IMG/VR virus record: IMGVR_UViG_2713896798_000007
Reading direction: 5' to 3' (one strand)
Length of the DNA: 47,837 nt
From: a virus
Taxonomy: Duplodnaviria > Heunggongvirae > Uroviricota > Caudoviricetes
Positions 12,001 to 15,000 of the stretch are shown here, in pieces; the first letter of the stretch is position 1; every line of letters begins with the position of its first letter. Made by a program: the position numbers.

Positions 12001-15000
12001 TGATGTCTGGCTCTCTGGTTGCGGGGTATTTCCATCAGAGCAGGCGTATCGCGTATGGCGTAAGACACCGGAGAAGGCTGCTGACCCGACACTGATTCGA
12101 AAGTTACCTGACGGAGAAATACGTCGTTACAACAGACGGCAGAACATAATTTGTCGTGAGTGCCGCCAGAGCGAAGTTATGCAGCGTGTGCTGGCGTTCT
12201 ATCGGGGAAACTTTCAGGAGGCGGTACTGTGAGTGAATTAGCTATCAGGCTTCAATTGTCGCTGGCATTCGCATCAAAGGAGAATGAGATGACCACTTTT
12301 ACAAAAGAGCAGTTAATCAGTCATGTTAGTGAAAATGTAAAGGCGATGAAATTTGCAGTAAAACAGACAGCATTCAAAAATTCTCTCGAGGCAATTGAGT
12401 TGGATTTAGCACTGGCCCTTGTTGCTCAGGCTTCGCTGGAAGCAGAGCCCGTGCTTTATATGAATCGATTTACCGGAAAGACATTCTCACTGGAAGAGCA
12501 ACCCGGTGCTGATAAGGAACCGGAAATATACGTGCCGCTATATGCTGCCCCGCCAGACAGCGCCGCCATGCTTCAGGCTGGAAACTTTCGGGAAAAGAAG
12601 GGTTCGTCAACCAATAATTTTCGGGAAATCTCGGAAACGTCAACCAACTATCCGGTAACTCTGGATGGTTGGATAAGCTGTAGTGAGCGAATGCCGGATG
12701 ACGGTCAGCACGTAATTATTTTATGTGATGGCGCATTCGTTCTTTATGCGCAATATCGAGACGGTGAGTTTTTTGATGTAGTCCGTGATGGTGATGAATT
12801 TTTCGAAACACAGAGCCGCAATGTAACCGACTGGATGCCGCTACCAGAACCGCCGCAGGAGGTGCGCCAATGAACTGGCCTGAAGCATTTGCAATTACAG
12901 GCGTTGCTATGGCTATCGCTTTTTTAGTATATGTTATTTGTCGGTGGGGGTAAAAACGTTCGCCGGGATTAACACCAAAGGAGGGAATATGTCGGATGAT
13001 ATTTCACTGGCAATGGAAGGTGCGCTGGCTGTTATTGCTGTTGTGGGCGTTTACTGCCTGGTTGTGTTTTTGATGGATCGACTAGGGAACTGAATTCATT
13101 ACGATATGGGAATTCCCATATCGGGTAAAAACGGTTTGCGGTAAAGCGAGAGTTAAGTAGAATTGCTGCGGGTGCTTGAGGCTATCTGCCTCGGGCATGA
13201 ACACCAACGGCAGATAGAGAAAAGCCCCAGTTAACATTACGCGTCCGGCAAGACGCTTAACATTAATCTGAGGCCATATCTATGACTTGCACATGTAGGT
13301 TAGCCTCTTACGCGCCGAAAGGCAAGGAGAAGCAGGCTATGAAGCAGCAAAAGGCGATGTTAATCGCCCTGATCGTCATCTGTTTAACCGTCATAGTGAC
13401 GGCACTGGTAACGAGGAAAGACCTCTGCGAGGTACGAATCCGAACCGGCCAGACGGAGGTCGCTGTCTTCACAGCTTACGAACCTGAGGAGTAAGAGACC
13501 AGGCGGGGTAAACCCCCGCCACCTCTGATGTGTCAGGCATCCTCAACGCACCCGCACTTAACCTACTTCGGCGGTTTTTTTTCACGTACTGTGGTTGTGA
13601 ATACGATTGGTATTAGGATATGCTAACAACATTAGCTTGACTAATTTTGTATTGACTTGATTTTTGTTAAAGAACAGGACGGAGAAGTAAGGGGGGCACC
13701 CAATGAGCTACGCACTAAAAAAACACCCGCGATTGACTATTCCCCCTCGCGATAAAAGCGTTGTGGCAGCTCCGCGCCCGGCTATCGATGAAAATTGCAC
13801 TCATCGTGAGCAGGTGAAAAATGCTTTCGATTTCGGTTTTTCTCGTTACGAGAAGGCAATGGAAGAACTTTCAAAAGTGTAATGATGGGTATTGTGCTCT
13901 ATGGCTGAGATTGTTGAAGGAGTGCATTACCTTACGGTTGATGATCTTGTTGAAATCAATCGTTCCCTAATTGAATTACAGACGCCAGATGAGCTCGTTG
14001 GTGTTCTGAGTCCAGATAACTTAAGTTCTTCTCAGGCCCGTCCCAGCATGGTTCGATGGTATGAACAGACTAATGACATGTTTGTACTGGCATCGGTATT
14101 GATTGAAAGTCTGATTCAGAATCATCCGTTTGCTAATGCGAACAAACGAACAGCTATGATGGCTGGTTACGTCTTCTTGTTGTTGAATGGCTATGAATTA
14201 ACAGCACCAGGCGATGAAATCGTGGAAATGGCAGAGGGACTGGCCTGCAAAACCTATACTCGAGAAGATCTCGAGAACTGGTTGTGTTATTGGTCTCGCG
14301 CGTATGACAGCCGGGAATTATGTAAAACAGGCGCAACTATTGTTTTGTATGAAACTATCAAGTTTAAAATGGAACAGCAAAACTAAAGGTGCTTCCAATG
14401 AAAACCCGCTTCGGCGGGTTTTTTGTTGTTTATTTTCGGTGAGTATGATGCATCTGGTTGTACTGATGTGGTTGGCTGATTCTGTTATTCAGGTGGCTTA
14501 TTGCTGTTGATCGGTATGTCTTCACGGCTAGAATCGAGGCTCTTAAGTAGCGCGCAGGGAGAAGAGGGATGGACCCCGAAGGGGAAGAGCTATTTATCTG
14601 GAAGGATTCTGAAGATGAAAATCGAAGAATTGCGTGAAATTTTTAGTGAAAATGGCCTCTATGCTGTGCGCGTTGAGAATGGGAAAGTTGTCTACACAAC
14701 GTTAATCCCTGATGATCATGTAATTTTATCTATCGAGGCATTCATTGAATACCTTGAAAGGCTCGGTTTCAAGGTAGTTCGCGAATGAGTTATAATTCGT
14801 AAGCCAGCCTGAACAACTGGCAACCTACAGCGCCATTGGAGACAGCAATGGCGCATATACAACTGGTCAAACAAACCTCTTCCGGATTACTTCTCCCGGC
14901 GACGCCGGAGAGTTGTGATTTTCTGCATCAAATCAAAATAGGCGAGTGGATACACGCTGATTTCAAGCGCGTTCGTAACTACGCATTCCATAAGCGTTTT

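What the first reader, a model, noticed from the sequence alone, without database searches (positions are those of the whole stretch)
13703..14386. Doc/Fic-family toxin with an uncharacterised small upstream partner ORF next to a Hok toxin
The 161-aa protein carries the Doc signature HPFANANKRTA. The 59-aa ORF just upstream, whose stop is 18 nt before the toxin start, does not resemble canonical Phd antitoxins by eye. Together with the Hok toxin 400 bp upstream, this cargo region carries two unrelated toxin modules and could be an undescribed toxin-antitoxin or abortive-infection pair.
Basis: partly seen in the sequence, partly recalled or inferred. Interest (0 to 1): 0.62.

Follow-up and report, generated by a model that had tools for sequence, protein, structure and literature searches.

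The report
Prophage Doc toxin with minimal antitoxin
This is a two-gene toxin-antitoxin cassette in an E. coli lambda-like prophage: an ordinary Doc-type toxin, paired with a very small antitoxin from an unnamed family that seems to keep only the toxin-binding helix and to lack the usual DNA-binding domain.

Summary
A 59-codon ORF (13703-13882) ends 18 nt before a 161-codon Doc gene (13901-14386) that carries HPFANANKR. A hok/sok module lies just upstream.

The toxin is an ordinary, already annotated Doc-family protein (TIGR01550, 125 bits). The small ORF is a real gene under strong purifying selection. It lies 6-18 nt upstream of this Doc clade in all 116 loci examined: 36 gammaproteobacterial genome or phage loci and 80 IMG/VR contigs. 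It has no Pfam, NCBIfam or PADLOC family, only PHROG 2208 (function unknown).

AlphaFold gives an extended N-terminal 33 residues and one confident C-terminal helix, with no DNA-binding fold. That helix matches the toxin-binding tails of AbrB/MazE-type "doc_partner" antitoxins only weakly (hhalign P = 5e-5). Its conserved hydrophobic positions line up with five of the six Salmonella Phd hot spots.

The ~850-bp cassette is a moron inserted at the hok terminator, relative to phage Rac. Adjacency to hok is a feature of the E. coli lineage only.

Verdict: a phd/doc-class type II module with a minimal antitoxin that has no recognisable DNA-binding domain. It is a new variant of a known kind and of modest interest. 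Toxicity, neutralisation, target and any anti-phage role are untested.

The parts
13557..13581 (+). Left junction of the cassette: a degenerate copy of the hok terminator. Homology to phage Rac ends at 13581.
   Evidence: BLAST against Rac MN652886 and the alignment. The RNA fold is -4.6 kcal/mol, no better than shuffles.
13608..13616 (+). Candidate extended -10 promoter element, TGgTATTAG. Inferred only.
   Evidence: Read from the sequence. 'TGGTATTA' recurs upstream of the pair in Kluyvera, Citrobacter, Izhakiella, Hafnia and Rosenbergiella loci. The consensus promoter scan did not call it.
13622..13636 (.). Palindrome GCTAA-caaca-TTAGC just downstream of the candidate -10. It could be an operator; function unknown.
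   Evidence: Read from the sequence. Many related loci carry palindromes near their promoters, but with different sequences.
13689..13696 (+). Shine-Dalgarno-like AAGGGGGG, 6 nt before the ATG of the small ORF.
   Evidence: Read from the sequence.
13703..13882 (+). Gene for the 59-aa putative antitoxin (WP_000119356, PHROG 2208). It has an extended basic, Pro-rich N-terminal arm (residues 1-33, motif R10-L-x-I-P-x-R-D-K18) and a C-terminal amphipathic helix (34-57).
13901..14386 (+). Gene for the 161-aa Doc-family toxin (WP_000818166), with catalytic motif H75-P-F-A-N-A-N-K-R83.
14400..14429 (+). Intrinsic terminator and right junction of the cassette. Positions 14404-14429 are 100% identical to the hok terminator of phage Rac.
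   Evidence: Terminator scan, fold of -16.2 kcal/mol with z = -4.15, and BLAST against Rac.

Best explanation
The two genes form a self-contained type II toxin-antitoxin cassette of the phd/doc class, carried as a moron in a Rac-like lambdoid prophage.

**Toxin (inferred).** The 161-aa protein is a Doc-type Fic-fold kinase. By analogy with the P1, Salmonella and Enterococcus Doc proteins, it would phosphorylate EF-Tu and arrest translation.

**Antitoxin.** The 59-aa protein is its antitoxin. It is largely unstructured when free. Its C-terminal helix (residues 34-57) carries a hydrophobic stripe: V38, A41/F42, F46, Y49, A52/M53, L56. This helix would dock into the Doc groove as the C-terminal tails of Phd and of AbrB-type 'doc_partner' antitoxins do, and so neutralise the kinase.

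**What is missing.** Unlike those antitoxins, it has no folded DNA-binding or dimerisation domain. Classical autoregulation by the antitoxin is therefore unlikely or non-canonical. Expression probably depends on three things, all inferred:
- the cassette's own weak promoter;
- read-through from mok/hok across a decayed terminator;
- translational coupling that keeps antitoxin in excess.

**Open point.** The nearly invariant N-terminal motif RLxIPxRDK must have a function. It could be a second Doc contact, a degron or DNA contact. That function is not identified.

**Biological role (inferred).** Prophage stabilisation and/or abortive exclusion of other phages when antitoxin synthesis stops.

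**Status of each step.**
- Shown: gene reality, strict pairing, Doc family membership, and the absence of a recognisable DNA-binding domain.
- Inferred: toxicity, neutralisation, target, regulation and role.
For: **Toxin is a Doc.**
- TIGR01550 at 2e-36, Pfam Fic at 7e-12, PHROG 577 'Doc-like toxin'.
- Nearest solved relatives are E. faecalis Doc 9VZC (6.6e-13) and P1 Doc.
- The motif HxFx(D/N)(A/G)NKR is present. H75, F77, N79, N81, K82 and R83 are invariant across the clade.

**The partner is a real, strictly linked gene.**
- It occurs upstream of the toxin in 116/116 loci, with gaps of 6-18 nt in the 80 viral loci.
- These include P2-like Pseudomonas phages, where it sits between int and attP.
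- Purifying selection is strong.
- An SD sequence precedes the ATG.

**Shape of the partner.**
- AF2 gives mean pLDDT 81, a helix at 34-57 with pLDDT above 90, and no secondary structure in residues 1-33 apart from a 3-residue turn at 3-5.
- All ~37 clusters found among 1.8 billion representatives are 38-95 aa and never fused to another domain.

**The helix resembles Doc-binding tails.**
- hhalign against AbrB-type Doc antitoxins aligns the two C-terminal 20-mers: probability 67%, P = 5e-5, and P = 1e-4 with 69 sequences.
- 5 of 36 members give sub-threshold hits to TIGR02609 'doc_partner'; the two matching members scanned individually align to its C-terminal part, profile positions 31-74 and 43-74 of 74.
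- In a gapless alignment anchored at the C-terminus, Salmonella Phd hot spots F56, M60, H63, L67 and L70 fall on F42, F46, Y49, M53 and L56. These are among the most conserved positions, and L56 is invariant in 69/69 sequences.

**Precedents.**
- A 22-residue Phd peptide alone neutralises Doc.
- The Phd-C element is a transferable element: fused to SUMO it neutralises Doc, although expressed alone it does not.
- Antitoxins without DNA-binding domains exist in other families.

**Cassette anatomy.** Rac homology stops at 13581 and resumes at 14529, and terminator copies sit at both junctions.
Against: - There is no experimental evidence of toxicity or neutralisation for this clade.
- Similarity to Doc-binding tails is weak. 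hhalign probability is only 57-67%. The anchored-alignment z-scores are 1.5-2.1 for classical Phd tails, and 4.1 only for the cyanobacterial AbrB-type tail. P1 Phd gives no profile match.
- One hot spot, I59, maps to a conserved Gly (G45).
- The Doc model was poor (pLDDT 53), so no groove could be inspected.
- The strongly conserved N-terminal motif has no explanation in this model.
- Palindromes near the promoters could mean that something does bind DNA there.
Confidence: 0.75

Rival explanations
1. The pair is primarily a prophage-encoded abortive-infection or superinfection-exclusion system. The short-lived 59-aa protein acts as the sensor. When an incoming phage shuts off host transcription, or binds or degrades the N-terminal arm, Doc is released and blocks translation. 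This is compatible with the best explanation but makes defence the selected function.
For: - The pair is overwhelmingly found in prophages: 165 IMG/VR contigs, lambdoid phages in E. coli, and P2-like Pseudomonas phages at the int-att cargo site.
- It is a self-contained moron with its own terminator.
- The N-terminal motif is conserved without a known role.
Against: - PADLOC gives only weak, sub-significant hits for the toxin and none for the partner.
- No phage-challenge data were found.
- Prophage location is equally expected for an addiction module.
Confidence: 0.3
2. The 59-aa protein is not merely a neutralising peptide. It is also a non-canonical DNA-binding autorepressor. Its basic N-terminal arm (RLxIPxRDK) would pair into a beta-ribbon when two copies are brought together on Doc. 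The complex would then bind the palindrome at 13622-13636.
For: - The N-terminal arm is as conserved as the helix (R16 in 68/69 sequences, I13 and P14 in 63/69) and is basic.
- A palindrome lies just downstream of the candidate -10.
- Long palindromes, with arms of up to 9 bp, sit in or near the promoters of many related loci.
- In E. faecalis, the antitoxin drives Doc dimerisation.
Against: - AF2 predicts no strand or fold in residues 1-33.
- There is no match to AbrB, RHH, Phd/YefM or HTH models.
- The palindromes differ greatly between genera while the arm is nearly invariant, which is not what a co-evolving operator and reader would show.
- hhalign does not extend reliably into the N-terminus.
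Confidence: 0.15
3. The Doc-like protein is not a growth-arresting toxin. It would be a Fic-fold enzyme with a different target or chemistry, for example one that modifies a phage or host factor for the prophage's benefit. The small protein would be a cofactor or specificity subunit rather than an inhibitor.
For: - Identity to characterised Doc proteins is low; they are matched only at E-values of 6.6e-13 (E. faecalis Doc) and 3e-5 (P1 Doc).
- The clade has its own conserved C-terminal extension (W127, W131, R133, D136, C141).
- Fic/Doc enzymes are known to vary in chemistry.
Against: - The kinase-type NKR motif, not the AMPylating GNGR motif, is invariant.
- The TIGR01550 score is three times the cut-off.
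- Gene order, tight spacing and the tail similarity to known Doc antitoxins all fit inhibition.
Confidence: 0.07

Closest known systems
Phd-Doc of bacteriophage P1 and of Salmonella Typhimurium (classical type II phd/doc; PDB 3K33, 3DD7)
   Same: - Antitoxin-then-toxin operon on a (pro)phage.
- Doc motif HxFx(D/N)(A/G)NKR.
- The antitoxin C-terminal segment of about 22 residues is the neutralising element. Hot spots F56, M60, H63, L67 and L70 line up with the conserved F42, F46, Y49, M53 and L56.
   Different: - The partner lacks the ~50-residue Phd/YefM DNA-binding and dimerisation domain.
- There is no profile-level homology to Phd.
- The toxin is only distantly related to P1 Doc (E = 3e-5) and is 35 residues longer.
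- Conditional cooperativity through Phd dimers on two operators cannot apply as such.
AbrB/MazE-type Doc partners (TIGR02609 'doc_partner'; mazE-doc composite systems such as TasA-TasB; E. faecalis Phd-Doc 9VZC; an AbrB/MazE-type antitoxin also precedes the Doc genes of the Streptococcus loci found here, and pneumococcal phd-doc is an experimentally validated pair)
   Same: - E. faecalis Doc is the closest solved toxin (6.6e-13).
- The C-terminal 20 residues align profile-to-profile (P = 5e-5).
- Sub-threshold hits fall on the C-terminal part of TIGR02609 (profile positions 31-74 and 43-74 of 74).
- Both tails end at the protein C-terminus with the pattern ...Y-x-x-[AL]-[MYL]-x-x-L-[SAV]-[KTE].
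   Different: - The N-terminal swapped-hairpin AbrB domain (about 45 residues, PF04014) is absent.
- It is replaced by a 33-residue Pro/Arg/Lys-rich arm with its own invariant motif.
- Whether that arm is a remnant of the last AbrB strands is unresolved.
Antitoxins without a DNA-binding domain: PaaA2 (paaR2-paaA2-parE2 of E. coli O157 prophages), S. aureus MazE, archaeal RelB
   Same: - A small, largely disordered antitoxin that consists of the neutralising segment only.
- Like PaaA2, it sits in a lambdoid prophage.
   Different: - The toxin family differs (Doc rather than ParE, MazF or RelE).
- Unlike paaR2-paaA2-parE2, no third regulator gene is conserved next to the pair.
PanA-Phd-C antitoxin of Corynebacterium doosanense (NetFlax)
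   Same: A helical Phd-C-like element is the part that neutralises a Doc toxin, and it works when moved to an unrelated scaffold.
   Different: In that system the element is appended to a globular Panacea domain. Here it is essentially free-standing, and the isolated Phd-C was reported to need stabilisation.

Membership tests
Fic/Doc superfamily (Pfam PF02661) | Match to the Fic/DOC domain model above the gathering score | tested here: met
   46.4 bits against a cut-off of 24, over residues 10-93.
Doc subfamily (TIGR01550 DOC_P1) | Whole-protein score above the curated cut-off | tested here: met
   124.8 bits against 38.65, E = 2e-36, with full-length profile coverage. PHROG 577 'Doc-like toxin' matches at 6e-51.
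Doc subfamily (TIGR01550 DOC_P1) | Kinase-type active-site motif HxFx(D/N)(A/G)NKR | tested here: met
   H75-P-F-A-N-A-N-K-R83. H75, F77, N79, N81, K82 and R83 are invariant in 21 clade members. The motif is as stated in PMC13034048.
Doc subfamily (TIGR01550 DOC_P1) | Phosphorylates EF-Tu Thr382 and arrests translation | not testable with these tools
   Inferred only, from the P1, Salmonella and E. faecalis homologues.
Type II toxin-antitoxin module | Small gene immediately upstream of and co-oriented with the toxin, and strictly co-inherited with it | tested here: met
   The gap is 18 nt here. The partner is present in 36/36 genome or phage loci and 80/80 viral loci, with gaps of 6-18 nt in the latter.
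Type II toxin-antitoxin module | Toxin inhibits growth, and the protein antitoxin binds and neutralises it | not testable with these tools
No experimental report was found.
Phd/YefM antitoxin family | N-terminal Phd/YefM DNA-binding fold | tested here: not met
   No Pfam or NCBIfam hit for any of 36 members. hhalign against P1 Phd gives probability 1%. AF2 shows no folded N-terminal domain.
Phd-C type neutralising element | C-terminal amphipathic helix whose hydrophobic hot spots match those that bind Doc | tested here: inconclusive
   Five of six Salmonella Phd hot spots coincide with the conserved hydrophobic positions. The anchored-alignment z-scores are only 1.5-2.1 for classical Phd tails.
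TIGR02609 doc_partner / AbrB-MazE antitoxins | N-terminal AbrB/MazE swapped-hairpin domain (PF04014) | tested here: not met
   There is no PF04014 hit. The TIGR02609 hits cover only the C-terminal part of the profile (positions 31-74 or 43-74 of 74) and lie far below the cut-off: 12.8-14.3 bits for the two members scanned individually, against 55.9.
TIGR02609 doc_partner / AbrB-MazE antitoxins | C-terminal Doc-binding tail | tested here: inconclusive
   hhalign gives probability 67% and P = 5e-5 over 20 C-terminal columns, and 57% with P = 1e-4 using 69 sequences. The shuffle test against the Symploca tail gives z = 4.1.
Three-component TA (paaR-paaA-parE type) | Conserved adjacent regulator gene | tested here: not met
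   No flanking protein is shared by more than 5 of 36 loci. The cassette between the junctions holds only two genes.
Known anti-phage defence systems (PADLOC-DB 2.0) | Match to a defence-system protein model | tested here: not met
   The partner has no hit. The toxin has only marginal hits to PDC-S23 and PDC-S05 (E at or above 0.002).
Hok/Sok type I module (neighbour) | Functional or evolutionary linkage to the Doc pair | tested here: not met
   hok/sok matches many lambdoid phages that lack the Doc cassette. hok is adjacent in 42/46 E. coli-like contigs but in 0/31 others.

The most novel reading that the evidence does not exclude
The 59-aa protein would be more than a stripped-down Phd tail. 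Its nearly invariant N-terminal arm (R-L-x-I-P-x-R-D-K) would be a second functional element specific to this Doc clade. Three possibilities:
- a product or pseudo-substrate mimic that plugs the kinase active site (P-P-R-D compared with the EF-Tu target G-G-R-T382; this comparison is from memory and untested);
- a contact with the clade-specific C-terminal extension of the toxin;
- a trigger-sensing degron that couples Doc release to phage infection.

The module would then have no autoregulation and be driven by prophage transcription reading through the decayed hok terminator. That would define a distinct, prophage-borne Doc switch with no DNA-binding domain, spread across Gammaproteobacteria.
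Probability: 0.15. Interest if true: 0.6.

Novelty: new variant of a known kind. Interest (0 to 1): 0.35.

Why it matters
**Annotation.** Doc toxins are usually described with Phd/YefM or AbrB/MazE antitoxins that double as operon repressors. This clade pairs Doc with a free-standing neutralising helix of about 55-60 residues plus a conserved arm, and with no recognisable DNA-binding domain. The clade spans Enterobacterales, Orbales, Pseudomonas and Halomonadaceae, and is very often on prophages. Naming the family would fix a systematic gap: the toxin is currently called as an orphan, with a 'hypothetical protein' next to it, in at least 125 complete E. coli genomes, including O121 and O157 STEC.

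**Experimental use.** The pair is a natural minimal system for studying how Doc is inhibited. It also bears on how a TA module is controlled without autoregulation.

**Limits.** It is not a new principle. The toxin, the operon logic and the idea of antitoxins without DNA-binding domains are all established.

Tried and rejected
2. **AF2 of the toxin.** With a shallow 21-sequence alignment the model had pLDDT 53. It was unusable, and no fold search was run on it.
3. **Homology to P1 Phd.** hhalign gave probability 1% and aligned the wrong segment. My by-eye alignment to Phd 51-73 is only marginal in a shuffle test (z = 1.5). It is kept as a lead, not as evidence.
4. **N-terminal arm as an AbrB remnant.** Extending hhalign (-mact 0.05, -glob) gave alignments with near-zero confidence. 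Not supported.
5. **PDB sequence searches.** Searches with the partner and with its profile gave only chance hits: ribosomal S25 and BbvCI.
6. **Consensus sigma-70 promoter upstream.** The scan found none, and the repeat finder found nothing in 13560-13720. The extended -10 and the palindrome are my reading of the sequence.
7. **Conserved third gene.** None was found.
8. **Literature.** No paper names WP_000119356 or WP_000818166. Goulard et al. 2010 on Y. pestis toxins could not be opened.
9. **Hok plus Doc as a joint two-toxin cargo.** Rejected.
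Full report
**1. What is there**

- On the + strand, a 59-codon ORF runs from ATG 13703 to TAA 13882. An AAGGGGGG Shine-Dalgarno sequence sits 6 nt before its ATG.
- After 18 nt, a 161-codon ORF follows (ATG 13901 to TAA 14386). A strong intrinsic terminator follows at 14400-14429.
- The 861-bp stretch 13590-14450 is 100% identical to chromosomal prophage DNA of E. coli O121 and O157:H7 strains. It occurs in 135 of 5,426 complete E. coli genomes and never on their plasmids.
- RefSeq annotates the same two CDSs: WP_000119356 'hypothetical protein' and WP_000818166 'type II toxin-antitoxin system death-on-curing family toxin'.

**2. The toxin is an ordinary Doc**

- It matches Pfam Fic/DOC (46.4 bits, cut-off 24), TIGR01550 DOC_P1 (124.8 bits, cut-off 38.65) and PHROG 577 'Doc-like toxin'.
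- Its nearest solved relatives are E. faecalis Doc (9VZC, E = 6.6e-13) and P1 Doc (3K33, 3e-5).
- The Doc-type motif HxFx(D/N)(A/G)NKR (PMC13034048) is present as H75-P-F-A-N-A-N-K-R83. It is invariant in a 21-member alignment of the clade.
- The clade is 150-166 aa long. It carries a conserved C-terminal extension (W127, L128, W131, R133, D136, L140, C141) that lies beyond the region aligned to P1 Doc.
- That Doc phosphorylates EF-Tu and stops translation is established for the P1 and Salmonella proteins. For this protein it is an inference.

**3. The small ORF is a real gene, strictly tied to this Doc clade**

- A profile built from close homologues finds the family immediately upstream of the Doc homologue in every gammaproteobacterial locus retrieved. 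These include Serratia, Providencia, Yersinia pestis, Morganella, Xenorhabdus, Gilliamella, Pseudomonas, Stutzerimonas, Halomonas and Kushneria. Marinobacter has a recognisable divergent form.
- It is also found in two P2-like Pseudomonas phages, where the pair sits between the integrase gene and the attachment site.
- It is present in 80/80 IMG/VR viral contigs examined, out of 165 that encode a relative. Gaps to the toxin start are 6-18 nt.
- Against other genera, synonymous sites are saturated (pS 0.72-0.99) while only 13-30% of non-synonymous sites differ.
- An exhaustive HMM search of 1.8 billion cluster representatives finds only ~37 clusters. All are 38-95 aa, with no fusion to another domain.
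- The family has no Pfam, NCBIfam or PADLOC model. Its only database home is PHROG 2208, 'unknown function'.

**4. Shape and relationships of the small protein**

- With a 36-sequence alignment, AlphaFold2 gives mean pLDDT 81. It predicts one helix at residues 34-57 (pLDDT above 90) and no secondary structure in residues 1-33 apart from a 3-residue turn. There is no Phd/YefM, AbrB, RHH or HTH fold.
- In 69 family members the helix carries a continuous hydrophobic stripe:
  - V38: 100% hydrophobic
  - A41: 68/69
  - F42: 90% hydrophobic
  - F46: 96%
  - Y49: 66/69
  - A52/M53
  - L56: 69/69
- P1 Phd shows no profile-level similarity.
- More distant Doc genes from Streptococcus and a cyanobacterium are preceded by AbrB/MazE-type antitoxins (PF04014; TIGR02609 'doc_partner').
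  - Profile-profile comparison aligns the C-terminal 20 residues of the two families with each other: probability 67%, P = 5e-5, and P = 1e-4 with a larger query.
  - Independently, 5 of 36 members give sub-threshold hits to TIGR02609; the two scanned individually align only to its C-terminal part, profile positions 31-74 and 43-74 of 74.
- A C-terminus-anchored, gapless comparison gives z = 4.1 for the cyanobacterial tail. It gives z = 1.5-2.1 for the Streptococcus, E. faecalis, Salmonella and P1 tails. The best offset is 0 or -1 in every case.
- In that register, the Salmonella Phd hot spots F56, M60, H63, L67 and L70 fall on F42, F46, Y49, M53 and L56. This includes the two 'gatekeeper' residues F56 and L70, which are essential for inhibition. 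I59 falls on G45 (PMC9207808).
- My reading is that the helix is the counterpart of the Doc-binding tail of known Doc antitoxins. The support is moderate. It is not proof.

**5. Why a tail-only antitoxin is plausible**

- A 22-residue Phd peptide binds Salmonella Doc with a Kd of 73 pM, blocks EF-Tu phosphorylation and rescues growth.
- The Phd-C element alone, fused to SUMO, neutralises a Corynebacterium Doc. NetFlax treats such linear elements as exchangeable modules.
- Antitoxins made only of a neutralising segment are known for archaeal RelBE, S. aureus MazEF and the O157 prophage PaaA2-ParE2. These systems have either no autoregulation or an external or third-gene regulator (PMC8138530).
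- Here no third gene is conserved: the best neighbour is shared by only 5 of 36 loci.

**6. What is not explained**

- The N-terminal arm is as conserved as the helix: R10, L11, I13 (63/69), P14 (63/69), R16 (68/69), D17, K18. A mere linker would not be. Options are a second contact with Doc, a degron, or a non-canonical DNA contact.
- Attempts to relate the arm to the last strands of the AbrB domain gave no reliable alignment.
- Upstream of the gene I read three features:
  - an extended -10-like TGgTATTAG (13608-13616); its TGGTATTA core recurs in five other genera;
  - a palindrome GCTAAcaacaTTAGC (13622-13636);
  - two TTGACT repeats.
- Many related loci carry long palindromes in or near clear promoters, but with unrelated sequences. 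The consensus promoter scan called nothing here.

**7. Context**

- The window is a Rac-like lambdoid prophage. It carries RalA, sok, two C4/isrK sets, STnc100 and AgvB.
- hok/mok/sok at 13170-13494 matches 79 phage records, and the match ends at about 13582.
- Relative to phage Rac, homology stops at 13581 and resumes at 14529, before rem.
- The Rac hok terminator ACCCGCTTCGGCGGGTTTTTTGTTG reappears intact at 14404-14429 (-16.2 kcal/mol, z = -4.15).
- A degenerate copy remains at the left junction (13557-13581; -4.6 kcal/mol, no better than shuffles).
- The ~850-bp cassette is therefore a moron inserted at the hok terminator. It may receive read-through transcription from mok/hok.
- hok lies ~400 bp upstream of the toxin start in 42 of 46 E. 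coli-like viral contigs, but in 0 of 31 contigs from other lineages. The two toxin modules are neighbours by accident of insertion, not partners.

**8. Verdict**

- This is a phd/doc-class type II toxin-antitoxin cassette. Its toxin is conventional and already annotated.
- Its antitoxin belongs to an unnamed, clade-specific family that appears reduced to the Doc-binding helix plus a conserved arm, with no recognisable DNA-binding domain.
- That makes it a new variant of a known kind, of modest interest mainly to TA specialists and annotators.
- Toxicity, neutralisation, the EF-Tu target, regulation and any role in prophage maintenance or phage exclusion remain inferences.
- The most useful single computation I could not run is a paired-alignment complex prediction.

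Noticed in passing
window 13557-13581 and 14400-14429: Terminator copies flank the Doc cassette. The left copy, downstream of hok, has lost its hairpin (-4.6 kcal/mol). The right copy is intact and identical to the hok terminator of phage Rac. mok/hok transcripts may therefore read into the Doc operon.
   Followed up: partly
window 13608-13657: Upstream of the small ORF there are three features: an extended -10-like TGgTATTAG, a palindrome GCTAAcaacaTTAGC (13622-13636), and two TTGACT direct repeats (13637-13642 and 13652-13657). None was called by the consensus scans.
   Followed up: partly
L006, L008, L009, L015, L019 (Providencia/Morganella), about 60-100 nt upstream of the antitoxin start: These loci have a clean TTGACT...TATAAC promoter. 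A palindrome with arms of up to 9 bp (for example TAATGTAAC-TTAA-CTTACATTA) fills the spacer. This looks like an operator, although the antitoxin has no recognisable DNA-binding domain.
   Followed up: no
L004 (Salmonella phage SW-37, CP051275), 2190-2945: The copy of the pair in this phage is frameshifted. The antitoxin is split over two frames and the Doc match is in two pieces. It is a decayed example.
   Followed up: no
window 1557-1735: There is a full-length RalA sRNA match (218 bits). RalA is the antitoxin of the RalR/RalA type I module typical of Rac prophage, so this window holds a third toxin-antitoxin module.
   Followed up: no
window 6958-7146 (-) and 16308-16506 (+): Two sets of C4 antisense RNA plus isrK lie in opposite orientations. 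These are P1/P7-type antirepressor-control RNAs, and one set includes a c4-a1b1 target match.
   Followed up: no
window 17281-17682: A weak tRNA-like match (17281-17340) is followed by STnc100 (17427-17620). The anti-GcvB sRNA AgvB lies on the opposite strand (17621-17682). This sRNA cluster is typical of EHEC-type prophages.
   Followed up: no
window 13901-14386, residues 120-141 of the toxin: This Doc clade has a conserved C-terminal extension (E125, W127, L128, W131, R133, D136, L140, C141) lying beyond the region that aligns to P1 Doc. Its role is unknown. It could be where the antitoxin's N-terminal arm binds.
   Followed up: no
window 14501-14788: A 95-codon ORF lies just downstream of the cassette. 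Homology to the rem region of phage Rac resumes within it at 14529 (~80% identity over 14529-14686), which marks the point where the phage backbone resumes.
   Followed up: partly
L001 (NZ_CP028110) 2293-3928: In the O121 prophage that carries the identical cassette, RefSeq annotates a 'sce7726 family protein' / 'beta family protein' gene pair and an IS3 element upstream of hokD. These look like further accessory cargo in the same region.
   Followed up: no
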